Source: Mobula hypostoma (Eukaryota). From it: a stretch of 64,000 nt of DNA. The first letter of the stretch is position 1, and each line of letters begins with the position of its first letter. Positions 59-19,500 of the stretch are shown here, in pieces. The notes under the pieces are model-generated. The model did not search any database. It was not told the DNA's origin and was given only the letters and a program-made list of their open reading frames with translations. The stretch covers positions 26,848,001 through 26,912,000 of the forward strand of contig NC_086097.1 of the NCBI RefSeq assembly GCF_963921235.1. Direction: 5' to 3'. Both the position numbers and the translations under genes were made by a program.

Positions 59-727
59 TGACAGGAAGATGGGTTGAGGGTGGATGTCCGGGAAATGGAG
101 GGGCCACCATTAGCAGTAGAGGAAGGGTAACCCCGTTCTTTGATGTCATGAAACCTAAAGTCCCATCTTGGAACAGATGCGGCAGAGATGGAGGAACTGA
201 AAAAAGGGAATGTCATTTTTACAGGAGACAGGATGGGAAGAGGTATAGTCAAGGTAGCTTGTCCGTAAGCTTATAAAATATATCAGTGGACAGCTTGTCT
301 CTAAAGATGGAGACAAAGTGATTGAGAAAGGGGAGAGGTGGACCAAGTGAATTTAAGAACTGGGTGGAAGTTGGAGGCAAAGCTGGTGAAATTGTTGAGC
401 TCAGCAGGGGTGCAGGAAGCAGCACCAGTGTAGTGCAGAGGGAGCTGGGGAGCATTACCAGGGAAGGCTTGGAACATGATCTGTTCCAAGTAGCCAGTGA
501 AAAAGCAAGTATAGCTAGGGCTCGTGCAGGGGCCCACGGCTATCCATTCTGTTTGGAGAAAGTGGGAGGAGCTGAAAGAGATATTGTTCAAGTTGAGGAC
601 CATTTCTGCCAGACGGAGGAGTGTGGTGGTGGAGGGAACTGGTTGGGTCTGTTGTTTACAAAAAGGCAAAAAGCATTAAGACCTTCCTGATGGAGAATAG
701 AAGTACATAGGGACTGGTCATGACATG
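59..727 (-). mobile_element. Degraded Penelope-like retroelement RT fragment
   Basis: Minus-strand peptides TTTLLRLAEMVLNLNNISFSSSHFLQT and SYLDYTSSHPVSCKN align with the Penelope RT at 28759-29690. Confidence 0.8.
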
Positions 728-815
728 GGGCTGCTGCTTAGCAGAGGTATTTATTTATATTTGTTGTAAATTTTTTTAATAACATTTATATGTTTTTAAC
801 GTTTTTATCTTTCAG

Positions 816-871
816 TTCAATTATTGCATCGATATTCCTTGGCTTATGAAGCAGTATCCTGAAGAATTCAG
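816..871 (+). CDS. TDP1: TDP1 coding exon (56 bp), FNYCIDIPWLMKQYPEEF(R)
   Basis: Acceptor ttttatctttcag, donor gtgagt. Peptide matches TDP1 FNYCFDVDWLVKQYPPEFR; phase fits the next exon. Confidence 0.93.
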
Positions 872-974
872 GTGAGTTGGGTCTTCAGGAAGTCGTCGAT
901 GCAGAAAATGCAGTCAGTAGTGAGAGATGAGTGCCTTGTTTAGAAAGGTGTTGAAGGACAAATGTGAGAAAATC

Positions 975-2848
975 TTGCTATGTTCATGGTTTTCTGCTGC
1001 TGTCGCCCATCCACTTCCAGGTTCAATGTGTTGTGCGTTCAGGGGTGCTGCACATCCCTGTTGTAACGTGTGGTTATTTACGTTACTGTCACCTTCTTGT
1101 CAGTTTGAAACAGTCTGGCCATTCTCCTCTGACCTCTCTTATTAACAAGACATTTCTGCCCCCTCATTGGATGTGTTTTTTTTTGTTTTTTTTTTAACAC
1201 CATTCTCTGTAAAATCTAGAGACTGTGTGCGAAAATCTCAGGAGATCAGCAGATACTGAGATGCTCAAGCCACCCTATCTGGCACCAACAATCATTCCCT
1301 GGTCAAAGTCAGTTAGATTACATTTATAGAAAAGTACTGCACAGAAACAGGCCTTTTGGCCCATTCAGTCCGTGCTGAGCCATTTAAACTGCTTATTCCC
1401 AGCGACCACAGCTCTCCATACCCCTACCATCCAAGTACCTATCAAAACTTCTCTTAAATGTTGAAATTGAGCTTGCATGCATCTCTTGCACTGGCAGCTC
1501 ATTCCACACTCTCATGACCCTCTGAGTGAAGGAGTTTCCCCTCGTGTTCCCCTTAAACCTTTCACCTTTAACCCATGACCTCTTGTAGTCCCACCCGACC
1601 GTGGAAAAAGCCTGCTTGCATTTACCCTATCTATACCCTCATAATTTTGTATACTTTTAACAAATCTCCCCTCAATCTTCTATGTTCCAGAAATAAAGTC
1701 CTAACCTATTCAATCTTTTCCTTGTTACTCTGGTCCTCTAGACCCGTCAACATCCTTGTAAATTTTTTCTGTATTCTTTCAACCTTATTTACGTCTTACC
1801 TGTAGGTCGGTGAGCAAAACTGCACATAATACTCCAAATTAGGCCTCGCCAATGTCTTATACAACTTCAACATAACATCCCATCTCCTGTACTGAATACT
1901 TTGATTTATGAAGAGCAATGTACCAAAGCTTTCTCAATAACCCTATCAACCTGTGGCACCACTTTCAATGAACTATGGACCTGTATTCCCAGATCCCTTT
2001 GTTCTACCACACTCCTCAGTGCTCTGCCATTCACTGTGTAAGACCTACCCTGGTTGGTCCTACTGAAGTGCAACGTCTCGTACTTGTCTGCATTAAATTC
2101 CAGCTGCCAATTTTCAGCCCACTTTTCCAGCCCGTTCAGATTCATGCAAGCCACAATAGTCTTCCTCGCTGTCTATTACATCCCCAGTCCTGGTGTGATC
2201 TGCAGATTTGCTAATACAGTTTATCACATTACCATCCAGATCATTGATATAGATGACAAACAACAATGATCCCAGCACCGATCCCTGCGGCACTCCACCA
2301 GTCACAGGCCTCTGGTTAGCGAGGCAACCATCTGCTACCACTCTCTGGCTTCTCCCACAAAGCCAATGTCTAATCCAATTTACTACCTTGTCTTGAATGC
2401 CCAGCGACTGAATCTTCTTGACTAACCTCCCATGTGGGATCTTGTCAAATGCCTTGCTAAAGTCCTTGTAGTCAACATCCACTGCCTTGCCTTCATCAAC
2501 TTTCCTGGTAACTTTCTCAAAAAACTCTTATAAGATTGGTTAGGCACAACCTACTATATATGAAGCAATGCTAACTATCTTTAATCAGTCCATGTCTATC
2601 CAAATATTTATATATCTGGTCCCTTTAGAATACCTTGCAATAACTTTCCCACTACTGATGTCAGGCCCACTGGCCTATAATTTCCTGGTTTATTTTTAGA
2701 GCCTTTCTTCCCCATTCTAATGTTTGATCTGAACAACAACTGAACCATTTGACCTTGTGTGCTGAGTTGCTGCCATATGATTGTCTGATTAGATATTTGC
2801 TTTAACAAGCAGATGTTCAGGTGTATCTAATAAAGTGGCCACTGAGTG
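975..2848. mobile_element. Non-autonomous Tc1-like element remnant interrupted by a CR1 LINE
   Basis: Segments 975-1325 and 2705-2848 join and match the uninterrupted copy at about 44050-44515. Ends ...taataaagtggccactgagtg followed by TA. Confidence 0.6.
1326..2709 (-). mobile_element. CR1-type LINE, 5'-truncated and degraded
   Basis: Minus-strand RT motifs PGNYRPVGLTSVVGK, DFSKAFDKIPH, GVPQGSVLG..LF.IYINDL and EKWAENWQLEFN. Confidence 0.88.
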
Positions 2849-3577
2849 TATACAAAGGGTTAAGTGTGACCAGGTATGGAGCGAAGGTGTCTTTGGGTAT
2901 TGGTTTAAAACCCCACTCTGATTTCTACACTGAGAGTGTCTGATATCTGGAACACGTTGTCAAATACGGTGGTGGAACCTGATGTTGTGACGATTGTCCG
3001 TCATATCTGAAACTTTGTGTGGGAGAGTTTTTAAAAGTGGAAAAGCCGTTGCACTGGGCAGTTCCCCTCTCTCGACCTTGGAGGTCTGAGTCCAGTGGTA
3101 CGAGTAGTCATCACAGCTGGGGTCTTCCTTAGTTGCAGTGGATGACCATGACTCCTTCTGTGCCTTGTCATGCTCTTTGCTCTTCACGGAGTGTCGCAGA
3201 GCCACCTTCCCGGCCGTTGGATCTCACTGGAGATCCCATCCGTCCCGTCCACAAAAGCTGGCTTCACGTGCCAGGACTGTCTCACCTGTGTCAGGTAAAG
3301 TAACTGCTTACTCTAGACAGTGGCTACACCCCGGTGGATCAGGTAAACTGGTGGTTATTGTTACACGTATCAAATTGCAGTGAAAAGCTTGTCTTGCAAA
3401 CCATTCATACAGACTACACGGTACACTGAGGTGATACAGGTAAAACAACCACAACGTAGAATGAAGTGTTACAGAGAACCTGCAATGCCAGCAGACAAGG
3501 TCATGAAAAGGCAGCTTGTGTGGTCAAGAGTCCATCTTGTCACTCTTGGGAATGGTTCAATAGTCAGTGGGGTAGAA

Positions 3578-3770
3578 CAGCGGTCCCCAACCATTGGGCC
3601 GCAGACAGGTACCGAGCCGCGAGGAAACGATATGAGTCAGCTGCACCTTTCCTCATTCCCTGTCATGCCCACTGTTGACTAACACCACCCCCCCCACCCC
3701 GTCGGCTGGTCCACAAGAGTATCGTCAATATTAAACCAGTCCGCGGTGCAAAAAAGGTTGGGGGCCCCTG
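3578..3770. mobile_element. hAT (Charlie-like) MITE
   Basis: TIRs CAGCGGTCCCCAAC / GTTGGGGGCCCCTG. Same family, reversed, as the outer element at 24467-25235. Confidence 0.7.
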
Positions 3771-4062
3771 GGACCGAAGATGTCCTTGAGCCATGCTCTC
3801 GGCTTTTGTATCTTCTGGCCGGGGGAAGAGAGGATGTTTGGGGTGGGTGGGATCTTTGATTTTGTTGGCTGCTTTACCTCAGCAGCAGGAGGTGTAGACA
3901 GAGTCCACGGAGGGGAGGACCCAGCAGCGATCGGTGGTCTATGTTCTGTAAGGTGGAGCCTGTGTCCTGTTGTGTCCTGGCTGATGCAGAAGAAGACTGA
4001 AATGCATCAGGAAAGCCCCTTCCCCTCACCTTCTCTATCTCTCTCTCAACCTTCGATTGCAG

Positions 4063-4159
4063 GACCAAGCCCTTGCTGATTGTCCACGGCGAGCAGAGAC
4101 TGGCAAAGGCACAGCTGCATGAGGAAGCTCATCCCTATCCCAACGTCCGCCTCTGTCAG
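4063..4159 (+). CDS. TDP1: TDP1 coding exon (97 bp), TKPLLIVHGEQRLAKAQLHEEAHPYPNVRLCQ
   Basis: Pyrimidine tract plus tgcag acceptor, gtaagc donor. Matches TDP1 [32 protein letters not shown]. Confidence 0.94.
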
Positions 4160-6535
4160 GTAAGCGTGTAGTCGGTCAGGAGCTCAGTCCCTCGTGCTGT
4201 TTAATGTGAAGCCCGCTGTACTAGTCACTGGTCAGACCACATTTGGAGTATTGTGAGCAGTTTTGGACCCCCTAACTGAGAAGGGATGTGCTGGCAATGG
4301 AGGGGGGCCCAGAGAAGGTTCGTGAGAATGATTCCAGGAATGAACGGGTCTGGGCCCGTTTGTGAAGATTTGGCATGTCATCTAAAACTTTGACAAACGT
4401 AGATAAGTGGTGGAGAGTACATTGGCCTGGTATGGAAACACCAATGCCCTTGGACAGAAAAGCCGAGAAAAAATAGTGGATACGGCTTGGTCCATGATGG
4501 GTAAAGACATCCCCATCATTTAGCACATCTATATGAAGTGCTGTCACAGGAGAGCAGCACCCATCATTGAGGATTCTGATTCTGACATGACCATATACTT
4601 CCCAACGCTGTATTCCATCTGCCTCCTCTTCGTCCATTCTCCTATATCCAAGTGAATTTCATCAGAATCGGGTTTATTATCATTGACGCTATGTGGTGGA
4701 GTTTGTTGTTCTGTGGCGGCAATGTAGTGCAAGGCATTTTTAAAAACAAGCTATAATAATGAAATAAATAGTGCAAAAGAGGGATAGTGAGGTAGTGTTC
4801 ACAGACCGTTCAGAAACCTGATGGTGGAGATTATTAAAAGTTGTTAATGTACCTGCCTCAACCCCCACCTCTGGTGGCCCATTTCATGTATGGACCACCC
4901 TCTGAGTGGAAAAGGCGTCTCCTAAGTTTCCTTTTAAATCTCTTCTCTCTCACCTTAAACCTGTGCCCTCTAGTTCTTGATTTCCCAACTCAACCCTTGG
5001 AAAGAGACTGCACATTCTGTGTACCTTTGCACGAATATTTCTTCACCGCACCATCCTACAGATGGTGAATAATTTATTTTTATTTATATAGAGATACGGC
5101 GTAGAGCAGGCAGCACCCGGAGGAAACCCACGCCTCATGAGAAGGATGTACAGACTTCTCAGAGAGGATGCTGGGGTTGAGCTCCAAACTCTTGTTGCCT
5201 TGGTATGTAATAGTGTAGCACCAGAAGTTACACTACCATGGCGTCCCTAGTGATAAATATTCACTGGTCTCTTGCATCCCATCCGGAAGTACAGGCAAAT
5301 GTTTTATCGTGTGTTGCATGTAATTTGCAACTCCATTCTCTGCAGTCCCCATTTCAATTATCCACCAATTAGTGAAAGTCAGGATTTCTCCACCAGAGGG
5401 CAGCCTTGCCTGCTGGTGAGTGGATTTGGGGGAATGTCAGGTTGATGATGTTGCCTGTACCGTGGTGATGCAGGTTCACCTTTCTGGGTGTGGTTCTCCT
5501 GACAGTGGTGTGCATGCATCCCACAGTAGCAGCTGATGGCTACTTTCCCACTTTTTAACCATAAAACAGGAGCAGATTTGGGCCATTTGGCCCATCGAGT
5601 CTGCTCTGCTATTCCATCATGGCTGATTTATTATCCCTCTCAACCGCATTTTGCTTGTTCCCTGTGACCCTTGACGCCGTTACTAATTAAGAACCTGTCA
5701 AATTTCAGTTTAAATGAACTCAATGACTCGCTTGTAGTATTGAATTCCACAGATTTACCACCGTCTGGCTAAATTCCTCCTCACTTCTGTTCTAAAGAGA
5801 TGGCTTTCTATTCAGAGGCTGTGCCTTTTGGTCCTAGACTCCCCCACCATAGGAAACATCCTCTTCACATCCAACCTAACTAGGCCTTTCAATATTCAGT
5901 AGGTTTCATTGAGATTACCCCCTCATTCTTCTAAACTCCAGCAAATACAGGCCCTGAACCATAAAATGCATTTCATACATTAATCCTTTCATTGATTATG
6001 CTGGCTGCTTTATTCAGGCATTGAGAAGTGTAGACAGAATCTGTGGAGAGGAGGACCCAGCACAGATCCACGCGGCACAGAACTGATCACAGACCTCTGA
6101 CCTGAACAACAACTCTTCCACTGTCTCCTTCTGCCGAACCAATTTTACATCCAATTGGTTAGCTTACCCTGGATCCGATGTGATCAATCTTACAAACCTG
6201 TTATGGAGTCGCCATAGAGGAGGACAGCACAGAAGCAGACCCTTCAGCCCATCTAGTCTGTGTCAGCCTCTTTTCTGCCTAGTTCCATCTACCTGCGACT
6301 AGACCATAGCCCTCTTTATCTCTTTCTTATCCATGTACCCATCTAAACTTTCCTTCAATCTTACAATTGAACCTGCATCTTCCACTTAGACAGCTTGTTC
6401 CACTCTTGCACCATCCTCTGAGTGAAGTAGTTTCCCTTCAGATTCTCCTGAAGTATTTCATCTTCCACTGTAAACCTATCACCTCTTGTTCTGGTCTCCC
6501 ATCCTGAGCTTGAAAACCCTGCAGGACTTTGTGGG

Positions 6536-9833: not shown

Positions 9834-10629
9834 GTAAGTAAGCAGGTTTTTGAGTACCAAGTACTGAATGATGTGTTATGAGGTACCATGGTGATGTTCT
9901 TTCCCGTTGGCCCAGAATTCACCAGGTCATTCAGAGTTTGGGAAGCACTGAAACTAATTCCCTCTCCATTGGAAAGAAATAAAGGCAAGAGAAAGCCATT
10001 CGTCCCTCACGCACACCTTACCACTCAACATCACAGCTGACACCACCAGGTTCAGGAGCAGTTGTTACCCTATAACCATTAGACTCCTAAGCCAGCGTGG
10101 ATAACTTCATCACTGAACTGATTCCACAATCCACAGACTCACTTTTTAGGACTTATGTTCTCAGTATTATTTTATTTGCAGAGTTTGTCTTTCTTTGCAC
10201 ATTGGATCAGAATACAAGCAAGTCCCTTTAGAACAGTGACGAGGAAGAATTTCTTTAGCCAGAAGATGGTAAATTGCTGGAATTCATTGTCACAGTCCAA
10301 AGACATAGTGGGTAGGTTAATTGGTCATTGTAAATTGTCCCATAATTAGGTTAGTGTTAATCGGGGTTGCTGGAATGGTATGGCTCGGAAAGCCAGAAGG
10401 GCAAACTCTGCAGCTGTATCCAATAGATGGCTGTGGAGGCCAAGTCACTGGGTATATTTAAATTAGAGGTTGATAGGTTCTTGATTAATAAGGAGGTCAA
10501 AGGTTATGGGGAGAAGTGGCAGATGACACAAAGGTTGGAGGTGTTGTGGATAGTGCGGAGGGCTGTCAGAGGTTACAGTAGGACATCGATAGGATGCAAA
10601 ACTGGGCTGAGAAGTGGCAGATGGAGTTC

Positions 10630-10659
10630 TTTCTTTCTTTCTTTTTAAATCTTTTTATT
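10630..10659 (-). terminator. L1 polyadenylation signal and patterned A-tail
   Basis: Minus strand reads AATAAAAAGATTTAAAAAGAAAGAAAGAAA directly before the TSD. Confidence 0.8.
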
Positions 10660-10990
10660 GAGTAAGTATACAAAAAAGGTAAGCCATATAAACATTAATA
10701 CAATGTTAAAGTATAATAAAATTCCAAAAGATAACAATACCAAAAAGAAAATACTACAAACAATGTAATTTAAGCATAAGAAACCAAGATAACATAATAG
10801 TATACTAGATTTTATATATATCAATGGAAAAAAAGAAAAAAAAAACCCCAAAAAAAAACCCACCGTGCAACTAACTAAAAGCAAAGCAAAGCAATGGGCT
10901 AACTTGAAACCAAACAGAGTTAAACTTAAAATCACGTCCTCAATCCCGACCTCCATTAAAACAGTGAAGAGAAAACAAGAAGGGTAAATA

Positions 10991-13900
10991 TTACATTAAA
11001 TGAAAATATCGAATAAAAGGTCCCCAAATCTGTTCAAATTTAAATGAAGAATCATAAAGGTTACTTCTAATTTTCTCCAGATTCAAACATAAAATCGTCT
11101 GAGAAAACCAAAAAAAGGTAGTTGGAGCATTAAGCTCTTTCCAATGTTGTAAAATACATCTTTTCGCCATTAAAGTAAGAAATGCAATCATTCTACGGGC
11201 TGAAGGGGAAAGATTACTAGAAATTTTAGGTAGTCCAAAGATAGCAGTAATAGGGTGAGGAGAGATATCTATATTTAATACCTTAGAAATAATATTGAAA
11301 ATATCTCTCCAAAAAGTTTCCAAAGTAGGGCAAGACCAAAACATATGAGTTAAAGAGGCTATCTGCCCCGAACATCTATCACAGAAAGGATTAATATGCG
11401 AGTAAAAACGCGCTAACTTATCTTTGGACATATGTGCTCTATGAACCACTTTAAATTGAATTAGGGAATGTTTAGCACAAATAGAGGAAGTATTAACTAA
11501 TTGTAAAATCTGCCCCCAATCATCCACAGAAATGGTAAGCCCCAATTCCTGTTCCCAATCTACCCTAATCTTATCAAATGGAGCTTTCCTAAGTTTCATA
11601 ATAATATTATAAATCATAGCCGATGCACCTTTCTGACATGGATTAAGGTTAATTATCGAATCTAAAATATATATAGGAGGAAGCATTGGAAAGGAAGTAA
11701 GTATAGTACTTAGGAAATTTCTAACTTGTAAATATCTAAAAAAATGTATTCTTGATAAGTTATATTTGTTAGATAATTGTTCAAAAGACATAAGGGAACC
11801 ATCTAAAAATAAATCCAAAAACCGTAAAATACCCTTAGTCTTCCAAATTTGAAAAGCGCGATCCGTAAAAGAGGGAGGAAAAAATATGTTACCTAAAATA
11901 GGAATCGCTAACCCGAATTGATTAAGATCAAAAAATTTTCTGAATTGAAACCAAATGCGCAAAGCATATTTAACTATCGGGTTAGAGACCTGCTTAAGAC
12001 GTTTCGAATCAAAAGGAAGAGAGGAACCTAAAATAGAACCAAGTGTATAACCCTGAACAGATTGTAATTCCAATGCTACCCATTTAGGAATAAATAGTAT
12101 GTCCCGATCAAGTAACCAAAATTTCATATGTCGAATATTAATAGCCCAATAATAAAATCTAAAGTTAGGTAATGCTAAACCTCCATCTCTCTTAGCTTTC
12201 TGTAAATGTATTTTACCCAGTCTCGGATTCTTGTTCTGCCAAATAAATGAAGAAATTTTAGAGTCAACTTTATCAAAAAAAGATTTAGGAACGAAAATTG
12301 GTAATGCCTGAAACACATATAAAAATTTTGGCAAAAAAAACATCTTAACTGCATTAATACGACCAATCAAAGTTAAATATAAGGGAAACCATTTAGATGA
12401 AAGTTGAGTAATATGGTCTATTAATGGTAAAAAGTTAGTCTTAAATAAATCTTTATGTTTACAAGTAATTTTAATCCCAAGATATGAAAAGTAATTATTA
12501 ATCAATTTAAATGGAAATTTATAATATAAGGGAAGATGTTTATTAATCGGAAAAAGTTCACTCTTACTAAGATTTAATTTATAACCTGAGAAAAGACCAA
12601 ATTGTGCTAATAACTCTAAAACAGCAGGAATGGATCTCTCAGGATTAGAAATATATAAAAGTAAATCATCAGCATAGAGTGATAATTTATGGGACTTTAA
12701 TCCCCGAGTTATCCCAGTAATATTTAAAGATTCTCGAATAGCAATTGCAAGAGGTTCTAATGCAATATCAAATAATAGGGGACTAAGAGGACAACCTTGT
12801 CGAGTACCACGAAAGAGAGGAAAAAAAGGTGAGTTTAAGGAGTTAGTACGAACCGAGGCTACAGGGGAGTAATATAACAGTTTAATCCAGGATATAAATT
12901 TCAAGCTAAAATTAAACATTTCAAGCACCTTAAATAAATAAGGCCATTCTACTCTATCAAAAGCTTTCTCGGCATCTAAAGAAATAACACACTCAGGAAC
13001 ATTTTGTGAGGGAGTATAAACGATATTTAACAATGTACGAATATTATAAAAAGAGTAACGACCTTTAATAAAACCCGTTTGGTCTTCCGAAATAATAGAA
13101 GGAAGTACTTTTTCTAGTCTATTTGCTAATAACTTAGAAAAAACTTTAGAATCAACATTTAATAAAGATATTGGTCTATAAGATGCACATTGAGCAGGGT
13201 CTTTATCCTTCTTTAGTATTAAAGAAATTGATGCTCTATTAAAAGATTCCGGAAGTTTACCAAGTTTCAAAGAAGCCTCAAAAACCTTATAGAGCCAAGG
13301 AATCAATAAAGAAGCAAAACATTTATAAAATTCAACGGTAAACCCATCAGGGCCAGGAGCTTTCCCCAGATTCATAGAAAAAATAACATTCTTAATCTCA
13401 TCCATTGTAATGGAAGTATCTAATAAAGAAGACATATCCTGTGAAATCAGAGGGAAGTCTAACTTATCTAAAAAATCATTCATATATTTAGAATCTCGAG
13501 GAGACTCTGATTGGTATAAAGAAGAATAAAAATCACAAAAGGTTTGATTAATCCCCACATGATCCAATATCAATCGATCATTTTGGTTATAAATCTGATT
13601 GATTTGAGATTTAACATAATTAGATTTCAATTGATTAGCCAGCAGCTTGCCAATTTTATCACTGTGAACATAAAAATCACTTCTTGTTTTCTTTAATTGG
13701 TTTACAATCGAGGACGAGAGTAGTAAACTGTGTTCCATTTGAAGTTCAGTTCTTTGTTTGTATAGCTCCTCAGAAGGAGCCATAACATATTTCTTATCAA
13801 TTTCTTTAATCTTGTCCACAATTACCATCTCCTCCTGCTTCTGTTTCTTCCTCAAAGCAACGGAATACGAAATAATCTGACCCCGAATATAGGCTTTAAA

Positions 13901-14767
13901 AGTGTCCCAAAGAGTGTTAACCGAAATATCTTCTGTATGGTTAATTGTAAAAAAAAGCTCAATCTGTTCATTCATAAAATTAACAAAGTCCGAGTCCTGA
14001 AGCAACAGCGAATTAAAACGCCATTGTCTATTGTTTGGTATATTGGCCATAATTTTAATAGAAAGCTTAAGTGGAGCATGATCCGAAATGGTTATAGAAT
14101 CATAATCACATTTAATCACTGAAGAAATGAGACGAGAATCAATGAAAAAATAATCAATTCTTGAATAGGAATGATGAACATGTGAAAAGAAGGAAAAATC
14201 TTTTTCCTGAGGATGCAGAAAACGCCAAATGTCCGTCGACCCAGAATCAGAAAGGAAAAAATTAATCAAATTTGCAGATTTATTAGGTAAAGTCCGTAAA
14301 GGAGCCGAACGGTCCAAAGCTGGAGATAAACAGGTATTAAGATCTCCGCCCCAAATCAATGAAAACTCGTTCAAATTCGGAAACTGATCAAACAATGATT
14401 TATAAAATTCCGGACAATCCATATTAGGAGCATAAACATTAACCAAAACTACTTTTTTATTAAATAATAAACCACTAACCAATAAAAATCTACCATTCGG
14501 ATCAGAGATAATATCCTGTTGTATAAAAGTAACTGAGGAGTCTATAAAAATAGAGACGCCTCGAATCTTAGCATTGGAGTTCGAATGAAATTGTTGTCCC
14601 TTCCAAAATTTGAAAAAACGTAGTCTGTCCCCCCTCCGTACATGGGTCTCTTGTAAAAATAAAATTTGTGCTTTAAGTCTCCGGAACACTTTAAAAACTT
14701 TTTTCCTTTTAATAGGATGATTAAGACCATTAGTATTCCAGGAGACAAAATTAATAATAGACTCCAT
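10991..14767 (-). CDS. L1 ORF2p: APE endonuclease + reverse transcriptase + CCHC domain (1258 aa from the first ATG)
   Basis: EN motifs SWNTNGL, LQETH, NVYAPN, GGDLN, SRIDYF, SDH. RT motifs KAPGPDG, YRPISLLN.D.K, DAEKAFD, RQGCPLSP, YADD, YLGI. C-terminal CDRC...HMFWSC. No stops or frameshifts. Confidence 0.96.
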   Translation of the reverse strand: MESIINFVSWNTNGLNHPIKRKKVFKVFRRLKAQILFLQETHVRRGDRLRFFKFWKGQQFHSNSNAKIRGVSIFIDSSVTFIQQDIISDPNGRFLLVSGLLFNKKVVLVNVYAPNMDCPEFYKSLFDQFPNLNEFSLIWGGDLNTCLSPALDRSAPLRTLPNKSANLINFFLSDSGSTDIWRFLHPQEKDFSFFSHVHHSYSRIDYFFIDSRLISSVIKCDYDSITISDHAPLKLSIKIMANIPNNRQWRFNSLLLQDSDFVNFMNEQIELFFTINHTEDISVNTLWDTFKAYIRGQIISYSVALRKKQKQEEMVIVDKIKEIDKKYVMAPSEELYKQRTELQMEHSLLLSSSIVNQLKKTRSDFYVHSDKIGKLLANQLKSNYVKSQINQIYNQNDRLILDHVGINQTFCDFYSSLYQSESPRDSKYMNDFLDKLDFPLISQDMSSLLDTSITMDEIKNVIFSMNLGKAPGPDGFTVEFYKCFASLLIPWLYKVFEASLKLGKLPESFNRASISLILKKDKDPAQCASYRPISLLNVDSKVFSKLLANRLEKVLPSIISEDQTGFIKGRYSFYNIRTLLNIVYTPSQNVPECVISLDAEKAFDRVEWPYLFKVLEMFNFSLKFISWIKLLYYSPVASVRTNSLNSPFFPLFRGTRQGCPLSPLLFDIALEPLAIAIRESLNITGITRGLKSHKLSLYADDLLLYISNPERSIPAVLELLAQFGLFSGYKLNLSKSELFPINKHLPLYYKFPFKLINNYFSYLGIKITCKHKDLFKTNFLPLIDHITQLSSKWFPLYLTLIGRINAVKMFFLPKFLYVFQALPIFVPKSFFDKVDSKISSFIWQNKNPRLGKIHLQKAKRDGGLALPNFRFYYWAINIRHMKFWLLDRDILFIPKWVALELQSVQGYTLGSILGSSLPFDSKRLKQVSNPIVKYALRIWFQFRKFFDLNQFGLAIPILGNIFFPPSFTDRAFQIWKTKGILRFLDLFLDGSLMSFEQLSNKYNLSRIHFFRYLQVRNFLSTILTSFPMLPPIYILDSIINLNPCQKGASAMIYNIIMKLRKAPFDKIRVDWEQELGLTISVDDWGQILQLVNTSSICAKHSLIQFKVVHRAHMSKDKLARFYSHINPFCDRCSGQIASLTHMFWSCPTLETFWRDIFNIISKVLNIDISPHPITAIFGLPKISSNLSPSARRMIAFLTLMAKRCILQHWKELNAPTTFFWFSQTILCLNLEKIRSNLYDSSFKFEQIWGPFIRYFHLM

Positions 14768-15635
14768 AAATCCTAAAGTCAACCCATAACAAGGAGGATT
14801 GACAATAGGCGCGACCCACAGACCCGGAGAGGAAACAGAACATACAAAAGATACCGGGGAAAAGGACGTAACCAATACTTCAATAATGTATATAGCCCAA
14901 AGAGAAACAAACTAAAACGTGAAGCCCCTCCCACCGCCCCCCACCCCAGGACCCCAAGGCGAAATCTAAAGCAGACCCGCCAGAAAGAAGCAAGCGCTAA
15001 AACTACCCCCATGACTTCCGGTATACGCTCCCTAAAAAAAAGGTATAAATATGAAAAGGATCAGCTAATTGTAAAACAGTAAAAAAAATAAGTAAAAAAA
15101 AGTTAGCTCAATTAAAATACACACAGAACAGAACAAAAGCCGGAAAGTATATATTAAAAAAAACCACAATAAACCTCAAACTCATGAATAGACACAGCAA
15201 CAAAAAAAATAGGATTATTAACATAAAATGATTATAAAAAGCAAAACAGAATAAAATTTAAAAAAAACTACAAAATTTAAGGCCGCACAGGAAATACGTA
15301 AGATGACAAAAGGGAAGTAACCACCCAGAATCCCCTGGGAAAAGAAAGAAATGACGCAGTTAAAAAGAAAGTTTAGCAGCCATATTAAGAAATCGAAAGT
15401 AAACTTTTCTGCCCAAATAGGGCACAGAAAAGTTAAAACCAACCAATTCACAGCCTCCGATCAACGGAGAAAATTAAAAAAAGACTTCCGGTAGCGCTCA
15501 TGGAGTGAAGTCGCGTTCTTGACTCGCTCCATTACCTCTGAGTTTTTTCTCTCTATGGTCAGCTATACTTTAATTAACTATTAAGGCATCAATTTTTACA
15601 ATACTTTGAATTAAACTGAATTCTCTGACAATTGG

Positions 15636-16535
15636 ATGATACTGAGATCGGCTATGTCTAAGAACGGGAAAGACGGCAAGGATGGTAAACCTCCGGTTAA
15701 ACCGAAAGCTACGGATCTCCCTCCGACTGAATCACCGGTGACTTTGGAAGCTATATCGGAGTTAATTCAGAGGGAAATTTCAACCTCTGTTAGGGAGATG
15801 ATTCGTACAGAAATTATGGGCTTTGTTAAAGACCTGATTCATATGGAAATCTCAACTAAGTTCCAGAAAATTGCCGATTTAATTGATAAGATGCAAACAT
15901 GTATTGCGGAACATCAGTCGGCTATATCTGGTCTTCAAAAATCCGCGCAACAAAGTGAGCTTAAGATGGGGAAAGTCGAAGAAACAATTAATGTAATGAA
16001 GAAGAAACTTGACTTTTTGACTTTTAAAAACTCTGACTTGGAATCTAGAATGCGACGGCAGAATTTACGAATGATTGGCGTCAGGGAAGCCGTGGAAGCT
16101 AACAACCCTATGAAATATTTCTCCCAACTTTTAAAAGATGCATTCCCTACTGTATTTCCTGACCAACCACCGCTACTGGATCGTGTTCACAGAATCCCAT
16201 CATACTCGTCTAGGTCAGATAGACCTAGGCATGTTATCTTACGTTTTCATTACTTTCAAGATAAGGAGAGACTGTTTCGATTCGCTCGATCTAAAGGTTT
16301 CATTGATTTTTCGGATCTTAAGTTCCGATTCGTGGAAGATTTCAGTAAACCAATCTGGGACCAACGGGTCCGTTACAGATCCGTGATGTCGGAATTCTAT
16401 AAGATGGATTTAAGACCAGCGCTGCTGTACCCTGCACGTCTAAGGATTCGCATGTTAGATGGAGCTCTTCGTTTTTTTGATTCTCCATCGGATGCCCAGA
16501 GTTATCTGGATCAACTTTCATCTTCAACATCTTAA
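15636..16535 (+). CDS. L1 ORF1p (coiled coil + RRM + CTD, Transposase_22-like), 299 aa, opposite strand to ORF2
   Basis: Heptad-rich region followed by DLESRMRRQNLRMIGV, LDRVHRI, PRHVILRF, EDFS and LLYPARLRI, typical of vertebrate L1 ORF1p. The start could be M1 or M7. Confidence 0.92.
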   Translation: MILRSAMSKNGKDGKDGKPPVKPKATDLPPTESPVTLEAISELIQREISTSVREMIRTEIMGFVKDLIHMEISTKFQKIADLIDKMQTCIAEHQSAISGLQKSAQQSELKMGKVEETINVMKKKLDFLTFKNSDLESRMRRQNLRMIGVREAVEANNPMKYFSQLLKDAFPTVFPDQPPLLDRVHRIPSYSSRSDRPRHVILRFHYFQDKERLFRFARSKGFIDFSDLKFRFVEDFSKPIWDQRVRYRSVMSEFYKMDLRPALLYPARLRIRMLDGALRFFDSPSDAQSYLDQLSSSTS

Positions 16536-19500
16536 TTGCCTTTTTTTAATTTTCTCCGTTGATCGGCAGATGGAGTTCAACCCAGATAAGTGTGAAGTGG
16601 TTCATTTTGGTAGGTCAAATATGATGGCAGAATATAGTATTAATGGCAAGACTCTTGGCAGTGTGGAGCATCAGAGGGATCTTGGGGTCCGAGTCCACAG
16701 GACGTGCAAAGCTGCTGCACAGGTTGACTCTATGATTAACAAGACATACGGTGTATTGGCCTTCATCAATCGTGGGATTGAGTTTAAGAGCGGAGAGGTA
16801 ATGTTGCAGCTAGATAGGACCCTGGTCAGACCCCACTTGGAGTACTGTGCTCAATTCTGGTTGCCTCACTACAGGAAGGATGTGGAAACCATAGAAAGGG
16901 TGCAGAGAAGATTTACAAGGATGTTGCCTGGATTGGGGAGCATGCCTTATGAAAATAAGTTGAGTGAACTTGGCCTTTTCTCCTTGGAGCAACGGAGGAT
17001 GAGAGGTGACCTGATAGAAGTGTATAAGATAATGAGAGGCCTTGATCGTGTGGATAGTCAGAGGCTTTTTCCCAGGGCTGAAATGGCTAGCATGAGGGGG
17101 CACAGTTTTAAGGTGCTTGGAAGTAGGTACAGAGGAGATGTCAGGGGTAAGTTTTTTTACGCAGAGAGTGGTGAGTGCGTAGAATGGGCTGCCAGTGACA
17201 GTGGTGGAGGCGGATACAATAGGATCTTTTAAGAGACTCCTGGATGGCTACGTGGAGCTCAGAAAAGTAGAGGGCTATGGGTCAGCCTAAGGTAGTTCTC
17301 AGGTAAGGACATGTTCGGCACAGCTTTGTGGGCCGAAGGGCCTGTATTGTGCTGTAGGTTTTCTGGGTTTCTAAAGCAGGAGAATGGGATTGAATGGGAT
17401 AATAAATCGGCCATGATGGAATAGCAGAGCAGACTCGAATAGCTGAAAGGCATAAATCTTCTCCTGTGACTTATTGTCATATGATTGTTTGTCAGTCTTT
17501 GCCTTTTTATGTACGTTTTTTGTAAATTCTGTTGTGTTTCTTTTTCCTGTAAATACCTGCAGGAAAATGAATCTCAGGGTAGTATATGGTGACACATACA
17601 TACTTCATACTAAATTTACTTTGACTTTCCTACCCCTTCCTACAATCCATGAATCCCAAAGTGAGCGTGACTTCACTCATCCCAACCTTGAATATGCTTT
17701 GAGTGGCTACAAGACTGGGCTAGTGAATTCCAGGTATGTGCCAAGAGAAGAAATCCCTCCCCTCGTTCTCATCTCAGTGCTCTTCTTCTCGAGCTGAAAG
17801 GCTTGAATTCTCTACTGTCCAGCATCAGCCCCATCTCGCACGTTATGGTTCAGGAACATGTCATCCAAACCAGGCCCAGTTTACAGTAAATACCCCTCTT
17901 CCCTCCCCCCCCACCCCCCCCCGCCACTCGTACTACCCTTCCATCGGAGGAGATTGGGATATCTAGATTTCACAGCCCTCCTGTAGCTCCATGTCCAATG
18001 GGTAACGTGCAGTGAAGGAGAGCCGAACCCCACGGCAACGTAAAGGATGTTTGGATTGTGTGATTGGAGGAGAAGGGACAGTGGCCTTTTCCAGTCCCTG
18101 CCCACCCCATTGGGCAGAAATGATAAAAGATTGAGAACCCTTGCCACCAGGCTCCAGGCCACCTTCTTTCCCACCTTTGGAAGACCACCAAACAGATCTC
18201 TTGTGGCTCCCAGTCTAACCCATCATGGTCCTTGCACTTTATAGTCATAGAAAAGTACAGCACAGAAACAGGCCCTTCGGCCCATCTAGTCCATCCCTAA
18301 GCCATCTAAACATAGTCATAGTCATACTTTATTGATCCCGGGGGAAATTGGGTTTCGTTACAGTTGCACCATAAATAATTAAATAGTAATAAAACCATAA
18401 ATAATTAAATAGTAATATGTAAATTATGGCAGGAAATAAGTCCAGGACCAGTCTATTGGCTCAGGGTGTCTGACCCTCCAAGGGAGGAGTTGTCAACTCA
18501 CATCGCCCTGCACCTCCATACCCCTACCATCCATGTACCTCCCAAACTTCTCCTCAACATTGAAATTGTGCTCGCATGCACCACTTGTGCTAGCAGCTCA
18601 TTCCACACTCTCACAGCCCTCTGAGTGAAGTTTCCCCTCTTCCCCTTAAACTTTTCACCTTTTACCTTTAACCCATGACCTCTAATTGTAGTCCCACCCA
18701 ATCTCAATGGAAAAAGCTTGCTTGCATTCACCCTATCTATAGCCCTCATAATTTCGTATACACCTGTCACATTTCCTCTCAATCTTCTATGTTCTAAGGA
18801 GTAATATCCTAACTTAAGTCAGTCCTTCCTTATGACTCAGGCCCTCTGGACATTTTCTCTGTACTCTTTTTCAACCCTGTTGATATGGAAATACATCTCA
18901 GTAACAAGCCCTTCGAGCCTGCGCCATCGGATTACACTAATCTGACCAATTGACCTCCTAATATCACAAACGAGAGAGAATCTTTAGATGTTGGAAATCA
19001 GAGGGACACACACAAAGTGCTGGAGGAACTCAGCAGGCCAGGCAGCATCTATGGAAAAAAAGTACAGTCAACGTTTCAGACTGGAAACCCTCCGGCTGGA
19101 CATTAAGCTACAAATGACTTTGGAATGTGCGTGGAAACCAAAGCACCCAGAGGAAACACAGGCAGCCAAGGGGATAACAGTAATATCTTACAGACAACCG
19201 CGGAATTAAACCCGTTACATTACTGCCCCTTTTATTTACCTGCACTGCACTTTCTCTGTCAGTGTCATATGATGTTCGGCAGTCTGTTGTTTCTTTTCCT
19301 CCTTTTGTACTACCTGTAGGTACTTGGGTATGAAATGGGTTGTCTGGATGTCACACACAAAAAAAAGCCCTTTCACTATACCTTTCCTTGTACCCATTTA
19401 CACAAATCTGACCTCAATCCCATTTTATTCTCCCCACATTCCCATCGGCTCCCCTCCACCCTGGACCTGAGCTTCTGGACCTGTTTCACTCACCTCTGGT

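What the first reader, a model, noticed from the sequence alone, without database searches (positions are those of the whole stretch)
10616..16578. Full-length L1 with both ORFs intact but arranged divergently: the whole 5'UTR+ORF1 block is inverted
Seen: ORF2 (1258 aa, minus) and ORF1 (299 aa, plus) are both open and point away from each other inside one 14-bp TSD. The 27-mer following the ORF1 stop (16540-16566) recurs as a perfect reverse complement at 15457-15483, where it abuts the apparent 5' terminus GACTTCCGGTAGCGCTCATGG. Flipping 15483-16566 restores a canonical 5'UTR-ORF1-spacer-ORF2-tail element with no apparent loss. Known: twin priming produces 5' inversions in mammalian L1, usually with truncation. 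Inference: this is a young, apparently complete twin-primed insertion with its breakpoint in the inter-ORF spacer, in a non-mammalian vertebrate. The more exciting alternative is an L1 lineage that propagates with divergent ORFs.
Basis: partly seen in the sequence, partly recalled or inferred. Interest (0 to 1): 0.8.

Follow-up and report, generated by a model that had tools for sequence, protein, structure and literature searches.

The report
Twin-primed full-length L1, front flipped
A very young, complete L1 jumping gene sits in this genome with its front part (5'UTR and ORF1) turned around relative to ORF2, most likely through the known "twin priming" insertion accident; it is one of several independent accidents of this kind and not a new kind of L1.

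Summary
ORF2 (1258 aa, minus strand) and ORF1 (299 aa, plus strand) are open and head to head inside one perfect 14-bp target-site duplication. A 27-mer after ORF1 recurs inverted next to the element's true 5' end.

The inner junction occurs once in the 3.48-Gb assembly. All 71 other sampled copies carry ORF1, 27-mer, spacer and ORF2 in one line, at 95-100% identity to this copy.

The "divergent-ORF lineage" idea is refuted. Two further loci (L042, L045) have the same head-to-head layout with both ORFs open. Each has its own breakpoint and its own target-site duplication.

Inversions are common in this family: 5 of 71 long copies, and 5 of 40 copies sampled near the 3' end. The published human rate is about 18-22%.

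The contigs of public runs did not bridge the junction, so the assembly is not confirmed by reads. The anatomy cannot arise from a simple misassembly or a later inversion.

This is a known mechanism in a new family. The host was not identified here. Modest interest.

The parts
10616..10629 (.). Left copy of the 14-bp target-site duplication, GGCAGATGGAGTTC
   Evidence: exact repeat of 16565-16578; a 15th base does not match.
10630..10646 (-). 3' tail of the element, AAAAA(GAAA)3 on the minus strand. It is preceded by an AATAAA signal at 10654-10659 (-).
   Evidence: sequence. The same tail type ends the other copies.
10647..10990 (-). 3'UTR
   Evidence: It lies between the ORF2 stop and the tail. 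It aligns to the other copies up to C5911.
10991..14767 (-). ORF2, 1258 aa, open. It has an endonuclease, a reverse transcriptase (YADD) and a C-terminal Cys/His motif.
   Evidence: it aligns end to end with human L1 ORF2p (residues 4-1231 against 7-1230, E 1e-184).
14768..15456 (-). Inter-ORF spacer, the part that stays joined to ORF2 (C1085-1773)
   Evidence: sequence. It is collinear with ORF1 in 71 of 71 other copies.
15457..15483 (-). Inner copy of the 27-mer (C1058-1084). This is the 5' end of the non-inverted block, where the first cDNA stopped.
   Evidence: exact reverse complement of 16540-16566.
15483..15484 (.). Inner inversion junction: 27-mer against the element's 5' terminus (G)ACTTCCGGTAGCG..., with 0-1 nt of microhomology
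   Evidence: The junction 25-mer occurs once in the genome at up to 1 mismatch.
15484..15635 (+). 5'UTR, about 152 nt, inverted block
   Evidence: in the other copies unrelated flanks begin just upstream of (G)n(GA)GACTTCCGG, so this is the true 5' end.
15636..16535 (+). ORF1, 299 aa, open, inverted block
   Evidence: human L1 ORF1p, E 2e-15, residues 100-282.
16540..16566 (+). Outer copy of the 27-mer (C1058-1084). This is the internal priming site of the second cDNA.
   Evidence: Its last two bases (GG) are shared with the target-site duplication.
16565..16578 (.). Right copy of the 14-bp target-site duplication
15013..15023 (-). TACCGGAAGTC in the spacer, an inverted copy of the element's first 11 nt (GACTTCCGGTA, 15483-15493). 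It is not used at this locus. It is the microhomology at the inner junction of L042 and L082.

Best explanation
This is a very young, complete L1-clade retrotransposon copy whose 5'UTR+ORF1 block lies inverted against spacer+ORF2+tail inside one 14-bp target-site duplication. It was most likely made at the moment of insertion by twin priming.

Inferred steps:
1. The element's endonuclease nicked the window's plus strand at ...GGAGTTC/AACCC. That 3' end primed cDNA 1 on the GAAA-type tail of a full-length L1 RNA.
2. The second strand was cut 14 nt away. Its 3' end (...CTGCC) paired through 2 nt with GG at C1083-1084 of the same RNA, 31 nt past the ORF1 stop. It primed cDNA 2, which ran to the RNA's 5' end.
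3. cDNA 1 ran on to C1058, 27 nt past that priming site.
4. The two cDNA ends were joined with 0-1 nt of microhomology.

This gives TSD - reverse complement of C1-1084 - C1058-5911 - TSD, where TSD is the target-site duplication.

Shown: the anatomy, the uniqueness of the junction, the collinear family, and further independent cases. Inferred: the order of events.

As a unit the copy would be unable to copy itself, because no single transcript carries both ORFs in sense. Each ORF could still be expressed; that was not tested.
For: Anatomy of this copy:
- Searches give the layout.
- The 14-of-14 target-site duplication encloses both blocks, and the tail is only at the ORF2 end.
- The inverted block's internal end (C1084) abuts the right duplication with a 2-nt overlap.
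- The 26-27-nt overlap (C1058-1084) is present in both blocks.

L1 identity.

One-off event:
- The inner junction is found 1 time in 3.48 Gb.
- The 27-mer-to-spacer 29-mer is found 1145 times at up to 2 mismatches.
- Sample A is the first 72 exact-match places in genome order, minus the window's own: 71 loci. In 71 of 71, ORF1's 3' end, the 27-mer and the spacer run in one line. 63 of 71 reach C1-2.

The same kind of event elsewhere in the family:
- 5 of the 71 have a 5' inversion with adjoining or overlapping coordinates. L042 is C1-1534 / C1511-5910, L044 is C37-2292 / C2256-5911, L045 is C1-1345 / C1338-5907, L047 is C1-4857 / C4854-5911, and L070 is C513-2226 / C2211 onward.
- Their target-site duplications are 14, 16, 16 and 11 bp; L070 was not checked.
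- L042 and L045 also keep ORF1 (299 aa) and ORF2 (1258 aa) open and head to head.
- Sample B is the first 41 exact-match places of the C5300 pattern, minus the window's own: 40 loci. It holds 16 full-length collinear copies, 18 5'-truncated copies, 5 inverted copies and 1 unresolved copy. L104, L108 and L112 have duplications of about 12-15 bp.

Youth: 1 mismatch and 1 gap against L045 over 5.9 kb.

Agreement with published human data (passages read):
- Inversions occur in 18.4% of germline and 21.9% of somatic L1 insertions. The median cDNA overlap is 12 bp and the median target-site duplication 13 bp (PMC12016303).
- Inverted inserts have target-site duplications of 10-20 bp (PMC4245944).
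- Microhomologies are found at both ends of the inverted part (PMC2912911).
Against: - No read-level confirmation. No contig listed from four runs of one sample bridges 15483/15484. These are short unitig-like contigs and the tables are cut, so this neither supports nor refutes.
- The mechanism is inferred from the end product; nobody saw the event.
- A 27-nt overlap lies above the upper quartile (17 bp) of the human data. L108 shows 66 nt and L044 shows 37 nt in the same family.
- The samples are restricted. Sample A holds only exact matches to one 29-mer on contigs C1 and C2. Sample B holds only contig C1.
Confidence: 0.92

Rival explanations
1. Assembly artefact: the true locus holds a collinear full-length element, and the assembler flipped the 5' block.
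For: No listed contig of runs X1-X4 spans the inner junction. The family has more than 1000 near-identical copies, which is hard ground for assemblers.
Against: A collinear copy has only one 27-mer, so there is no inverted repeat for an assembler to flip between. The assembled form needs an extra 27-mer, a junction exactly at the L1 5' terminus, and a junction of C1084 to the target-site duplication with 2 shared bases. The same architecture, with other breakpoints and other duplications, appears at nine further loci; a target-site duplication was confirmed for eight of the nine (L070 was not checked).
Confidence: 0.03
2. Post-insertion DNA inversion: a normal collinear insertion was later inverted between its 5' boundary and C1084.
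For: The end product is an inversion. Inversions by breakage and repair, or by replication template switching, do occur and can leave short duplications.
Against: One break would have to fall exactly at the element/duplication boundary. It would have to do so again in each of the other inverted copies, all of which have their outer end against the target-site duplication. The copy is nearly identical to other copies, which leaves little time. No inverted repeat existed beforehand to drive recombination.
Confidence: 0.03
3. An L1 sub-lineage that propagates with divergent ORFs. ORF2 would be driven by its own or a bidirectional promoter.
For: Three loci (the window, L042, L045) have the head-to-head layout with both ORFs open. 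The inner junction of L042 occurs a second time, in L082. The spacer holds an inverted copy of the 5'-terminal 11-mer.
Against: The inner junctions of the window and of L045 are unique in the genome. The three breakpoints differ (C1084, about C1524, C1345). L082 and L042 have different flanks and different duplications, and outer ends about 4 nt apart. They are only 97.4% alike, while L042 is 99.3-99.8% like the window copy. They are therefore not each other's closest kin, and the shared junction sits on a 10-11-nt microhomology. Pattern counts show no excess of copies starting after the spacer motif: 1344 at the 5' end, 1141 at C1464 and 1374 at C1541.
Confidence: 0.01
4. Two separate insertions that happen to lie side by side: a 5'-truncated ORF2 copy and an ORF1 fragment.
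For: Nested and adjacent insertions of this family are frequent: 4 of 71 in sample A (L010, L014, L035, L037).
Against: The ORF1 block has no tail of its own and ends 31 nt after its stop codon. A single 14-bp duplication encloses both blocks. The two blocks' coordinates meet at C1058-1084. True nested cases look different: the older copy is split and shows its own target-site duplication (L048, L062).
Confidence: 0.01

Closest known systems
Twin-primed (5'-inverted) L1 insertions of human and mouse. The model is that of Ostertag & Kazazian 2001; that paper is not held and is recalled. The model is described in passages of PMC2912911, PMC4245944 and PMC12016303.
   Same: One target-site duplication of 10-20 bp; the tail only at the non-inverted end; the inverted block's internal end against the other copy of the duplication with microhomology; a short overlap between the blocks. 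The family-level rate of 12.5% (5 of 40) is of the order of the human 18-22%.
   Different: The inverted cDNA reached the very 5' end. The break falls in the 720-nt inter-ORF spacer, so nothing is lost and both ORFs stay open. Human breakpoints are described as spread over the 3' end of L1. The host is coded and was not identified here. PMC4245944 saw inversions almost only with human L1 in human cells.
Collinear full-length copies of the same L1 family in this genome (for example the copies behind L084, L096 and L109)
   Same: 95-100% identical over C1-5911. Same 5' end, ORFs, spacer and tail.
   Different: They have a single 27-mer and both ORFs on one strand. Of 14 uninterrupted full-length collinear copies examined, 7 have both ORFs open.
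Twin-priming-type RTE insertions noted earlier in this same genome (scan notes e1-7812926 and e1-9821082)
   Same: Same genome, same kind of flip.
   Different: A different LINE clade, and dead copies. I did not re-test those notes.

Membership tests
L1-clade LINE | ORF2 with an APE-type endonuclease, a reverse transcriptase and a C-terminal Cys/His domain, alignable to L1 ORF2p | tested here: met
   Exo_endo_phos and RVT_1 above their cut-offs; zf-RVT at 26 bits against a cut-off of 27.5; human L1 ORF2p E 1e-184, residues 4-1231 against 7-1230. YADD and CDRCSGQIASLTHMFWSC can be read in the translation; the motif names are recalled.
L1-clade LINE | L1-type ORF1p (coiled coil, RRM, C-terminal domain) | tested here: met
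   Transposase_22, E 8.7e-10; human ORF1p chains 2ykp/2yko, E 2e-15 over residues 100-282.
L1-clade LINE | Insertion by target-primed reverse transcription: A-rich or simple-repeat tail, target-site duplication of about 10-20 bp, nick at a T-rich/A site | tested here: met
   The tail is AAAAA(GAAA)3. The target-site duplication is 14 bp. The nick site reads ...GTTC/AACC on the primed strand. The resemblance to TTTT/AA is recalled.
Twin-primed (5'-inverted) LINE insertion | One target-site duplication encloses both the inverted and the non-inverted block | tested here: met
   10616-10629 equals 16565-16578. The flanks are continuous in other copies of the host repeat (table 7).
Twin-primed (5'-inverted) LINE insertion | The element coordinates of the two blocks adjoin, with a small overlap or gap | tested here: met
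   The blocks are C1-1084 and C1058-5911, an overlap of 26-27 nt.
Twin-primed (5'-inverted) LINE insertion | The internal (3'-most) end of the inverted block lies against the target-site duplication, with microhomology to the target's 3' end | tested here: met
   C1084 abuts the right duplication; 2 nt (GG, 16565-16566) are shared.
Twin-primed (5'-inverted) LINE insertion | Two priming events on one RNA during insertion | not testable with these tools
   Only the end product is visible.
L1 lineage propagating with divergent ORFs (hypothetical) | Several copies share the same inner junction, have independent target-site duplications, and are each other's closest relatives | tested here: not met
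   The window junction is found 1 time and the L045 junction 1 time. The L042 junction is found 2 times, but L042 and L082 are only 97.4% alike and sit on a 10-11-nt microhomology.

The most novel reading that the evidence does not exclude
The head-to-head copies (this one, L042 and L045) are not inert. The ETS-like 5'-terminal promoter core fires in both directions. Alternatively, its inverted copy in the spacer provides a start site. Either way ORF1 and ORF2 would be made from two divergent transcripts. Such loci would then act as trans-suppliers of L1 proteins, or as ORF1-less units able to copy their ORF2 half. More broadly, twin priming is about as frequent here as in humans, which argues against a requirement for human-specific host factors.
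Probability: 0.1. Interest if true: 0.55.

Novelty: new member of a known kind. Interest (0 to 1): 0.3.

Why it matters
The finding gives a clean natural example, repeated at several loci, of twin priming in which both cDNAs are complete. It shows that this L1 reverse transcriptase can run from an internal priming site to the RNA's 5' end.

It also shows that 5' inversion occurs in this family at a rate of the order of the human one. One cell-culture study saw inversions almost only with human L1 in human cells (PMC4245944, passages), so natural data from another host bear on whether host factors limit twin priming.

For annotation there is a practical point. Such loci look like two divergent genes but are single, dead-end insertions.

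It does not reveal a new kind of element.

Tried and rejected
**Read support.**
- Four runs of one sample (X1-X4) and two possible RNA runs (X5, X6) were laid.
- All are short contigs. No listed piece bridges 15483/15484, and the tables are cut (636 and 10445 pieces not shown).
- In X5 and X6 only the collinear joint of the other copies was seen (15456 to 16566, 27 letters shared).
- This gives no verdict on the assembly and no evidence on expression.

**Internal ORF2 promoter or ORF2-only copies.**
- Pattern counts at up to 2 mismatches were 1344 at C8-36, 1145 at C1070-1098, 1141 at C1464-1492, 1374 at C1541-1569 and 4030 at C5300-5328.
- There is no pile-up of 5' ends after the spacer motif. 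Differences of about 200 are within what conservation of the pattern can explain.

**Enrichment of breakpoints in the spacer.** Two of the 5 inverted copies in sample A break there, against 12% of the element's length. The one-sided binomial p is about 0.11, which is not significant.

**Empty-site search in the window.** 0 matches; it was uninformative.

**Candidates that turned out to be nested insertions.** L014/L043, L035/L046+L062 and L037/L048 looked like inversions. Each is a full-length copy nested in an older copy.

**Papers.**
- Ostertag & Kazazian 2001 and the two Ichiyanagi & Okada papers on zebrafish and vertebrate LINE junctions are not held. I cannot say whether L1 5' inversions in fish are already in print.
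- Searches brought up only mammalian L1 work on twin priming.

**Earlier scan notes.** There is nothing near this place and nothing similar in sequence.
Full report
**1. What is there**

In window coordinates the element runs from 10616 to 16578.
- ORF2 (10991-14767, minus strand, 1258 aa) and ORF1 (15636-16535, plus strand, 299 aa) are both open and point away from each other.
- ORF2 carries the endonuclease and reverse-transcriptase domains (Pfam). It aligns from end to end with human L1 ORF2p (E 1e-184).
- ORF1 matches the L1 ORF1 RNA-binding domain and human ORF1p (E 2e-15).
- On the minus strand the element ends in AATAAA followed by AAAAA(GAAA)3, at 10659-10630.
- The 14-mer GGCAGATGGAGTTC stands at 10616-10629 and again at 16565-16578.
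- The 27-mer at 16540-16566, which begins 4 nt after the ORF1 stop, is the exact reverse complement of 15457-15483. There it meets (G)ACTTCCGGTAGCG.
- The right flank belongs to a still more abundant repeat (word depth about 1.2 million against about 0.1 million). Loose ends of other copies of that repeat, placed before 16565, end in the window's own left-flank sequence (table 7). The two flanks were therefore contiguous before the insertion.

**2. The family**

The window lies at G000:C1:26848001-26912000 in a 3.48-Gb assembly.

I use "C" coordinates for the collinear order of the element:

| Feature | C coordinates |
|---|---|
| 5'UTR | C1-153 |
| ORF1 | C154-1053 |
| 27-mer | C1058-1084 |
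| Spacer | up to C1773 |
| ORF2 | C1774-5550 |
| Element end | C5911 |

Pattern counts at up to 2 mismatches:

| Pattern position | Hits |
|---|---|
| 5' end (C8-36) | 1344 |
| C1070-1098 | 1145 |
| C1464-1492 | 1141 |
| C1541-1569 | 1374 |
| C5300-5328 | 4030 |

About a third of the copies therefore reach the 5' end.

Upstream of (G)n(GA)GACTTCCGG the flanks of the different copies are unrelated. This is the true 5' terminus, and the window copy is complete to within a few variable bases.

Of 14 uninterrupted full-length collinear copies examined, 7 have both ORFs open. The family is young and probably still active.

**3. One-off event or lineage?**

The inner junction, as a 25-mer at up to 1 mismatch, occurs once in the genome.

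Sample A is the first 72 exact-match places in genome order, minus the window's own, giving 71 loci.
- In 71 of 71, ORF1's end, the 27-mer and the spacer run in one line.
- 63 of 71 reach C1-2.
- Identity to the window copy ranges from 95% to 100%.

The divergent-ORF lineage is therefore refuted.

**4. The same accident elsewhere**

Five of the 71 loci carry a 5' inversion whose two blocks adjoin in element coordinates:

| Locus | Inverted block / other block | Target-site duplication | ORFs |
|---|---|---|---|
| L042 | C1-1534 / C1511-5910 | 14 bp | both open, head to head |
| L045 | C1-1345 / C1338-5907 | 16 bp | both open, head to head |
| L044 | C37-2292 / C2256-5911 | 16 bp | ORF1 open, ORF2 broken by the inversion |
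| L047 | C1-4857 / C4854-5911 | 11 bp, low complexity | ORF1 open, ORF2 broken by the inversion |
| L070 | C513-2226 / C2211 onward | not checked | not examined |

L045 differs from the window copy by 1 mismatch and 1 gap over 5.9 kb.

Four other loci that looked similar are nested insertions: L010, L014, L035 and L037. In L014, L035 and L037 a full-length copy sits in an older copy, which is split and shows its own target-site duplication. In L010 the host copy (L009's) is split by a same-orientation insertion. L075 remains unclassified.

Sample B is the first 41 exact-match places of the C5300 pattern, minus the window's own, giving 40 loci. It holds:
- 16 full-length collinear copies;
- 18 5'-truncated copies;
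- 5 inverted copies: L094 (the same locus as L042), L120 (the same locus as L044), L104, L108 and L112;
- 1 unresolved copy (L114).

L104, L108 and L112 have target-site duplications of about 12-15 bp.

By BLAST coordinates the overlaps between the two blocks are 27, 24, 37, 8, 4, 16, -2, 66 and 15 nt. The value of 24 is inflated by a local homology.

In humans, passages of PMC12016303 report inversions in 18.4% of germline and 21.9% of somatic L1 insertions. The median overlap is 12 bp and the median target-site duplication 13 bp. Passages of PMC4245944 report duplications of 10-20 bp for inverted inserts.

The picture here matches the human one, except that many inverted blocks reach the 5' end.

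**5. A shared junction explained**

The inner junction of L045 is unique in the genome. That of L042 occurs twice.

The second locus, L082 on C64, is an independent event, for these reasons:
- it has different flanks and a different target-site duplication;
- its outer end lies about 4 nt away from that of L042 (about C1520 against about C1524, read from the printed flanks);
- it belongs to an older subfamily, 95.7-98% identical to the window copy and 97.4% to L042, whereas L042 is 99.3-99.8% identical to the window copy.

The junction sits on a 10-11-nt match between the element's first bases (GACTTCCGGTA) and an inverted copy of them in the spacer (window 15023-15013). I read the two loci as independent events resolved at the same microhomology, not as parent and offspring.

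**6. Mechanism (inferred from the end product)**

1. The first nick fell at ...GGAGTTC/AACCC on the window's plus strand. cDNA 1 was primed on the GAAA-type tail.
2. The second nick fell 14 nt away. That 3' end (...CTGCC) paired through CC:GG with C1083-1084 of the same RNA and primed cDNA 2, which reached the RNA's 5' end.
3. cDNA 1 ran on to C1058.
4. The two cDNA ends were joined with 0-1 nt of microhomology.

A later inversion would need one break exactly at the element's boundary, here and again at every other inverted locus. A collinear copy also has no second 27-mer for recombination, or for an assembler, to use. I therefore give about 0.03 each to a later inversion and to a misassembly.

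Contigs of public runs did not bridge the junction. That leaves the assembly unconfirmed at read level.

**7. What the locus can do**

No single transcript carries both ORFs in sense, so the composite should not be able to copy itself (inferred). Consistent with this, no copy of its junction exists elsewhere.

Whether ORF1, which now reads outward into the flank, or ORF2 is expressed was not tested.

**8. Comparison and novelty**

This is a member of a known class, the twin-primed L1 insertion, in a family and host where I found no published description. Searches returned only mammalian L1 work. The two most relevant papers on fish LINE junctions are not held, so prior description cannot be excluded.

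Earlier notes of this scan (e1-7812926 and e1-9821082) report twin-priming-type flips of an RTE family in the same genome. I did not re-test them.

Interest is modest. The case is tidy, recurrent and complete at both ends, but it is not a new kind of element.

Noticed in passing
window 15013-15023 (-) and 15483-15493 (+): The element's first 11 nt (GACTTCCGGTA) recur inverted in the inter-ORF spacer about 250 nt upstream of ORF2, next to a G-rich GGGGCGG-like stretch (about 14930-14945). The CCGGAAGT core resembles an ETS-type binding site; that is recalled and was not tested. The pair could form a long-range RNA stem or mark a second or antisense promoter. It served as the joining microhomology in L042 and L082.
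   Followed up: partly
loci L010, L043 (=L014), L046+L062 (=L035), L048 (=L037): Four of the 71 sampled long copies are nested in another copy of the same family. By a rough estimate from about 4000 copies, the family makes up well under 1% of the genome. This suggests a preference for inserting into its own kind or into shared regions. A passage of PMC12016303 reports a similar tendency in humans.
   Followed up: partly
window 16579-17232 (+) and 10500-10615 (+): The insertion target is a much more abundant repeat (word depth about 1.2 million). Its frame ...WQMEFNPDKCEVVHFG... stays open for about 220 codons to the right of the insertion. The 257-aa ORF at 16459-17232 is a chance fusion of an L1 out-of-frame stretch with that frame. 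Pfam gave no family for it. A resemblance to CR1/L2-type reverse transcriptases is only recalled.
   Followed up: no
5' ends of L002-L021: Full-length copies start with a variable number of extra bases (G, GG, GGG, GAG) ahead of GACTTCC. This looks like start-site scatter or untemplated G added opposite the RNA cap.
   Followed up: no
L002/L083 (C172-256), L025 (C627-658), L033 (C93-164): Several otherwise full-length copies carry small internal deletions in the 5'UTR or the start of ORF1.
   Followed up: no
runs X5 and X6 laid on window 15300-16800: Two small runs that are only guessed to be RNA hold contigs of this L1 family at depths of about 700-5000, including the collinear ORF1-spacer joint. 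If they really are RNA, the family is expressed. This could not be established.
   Followed up: no
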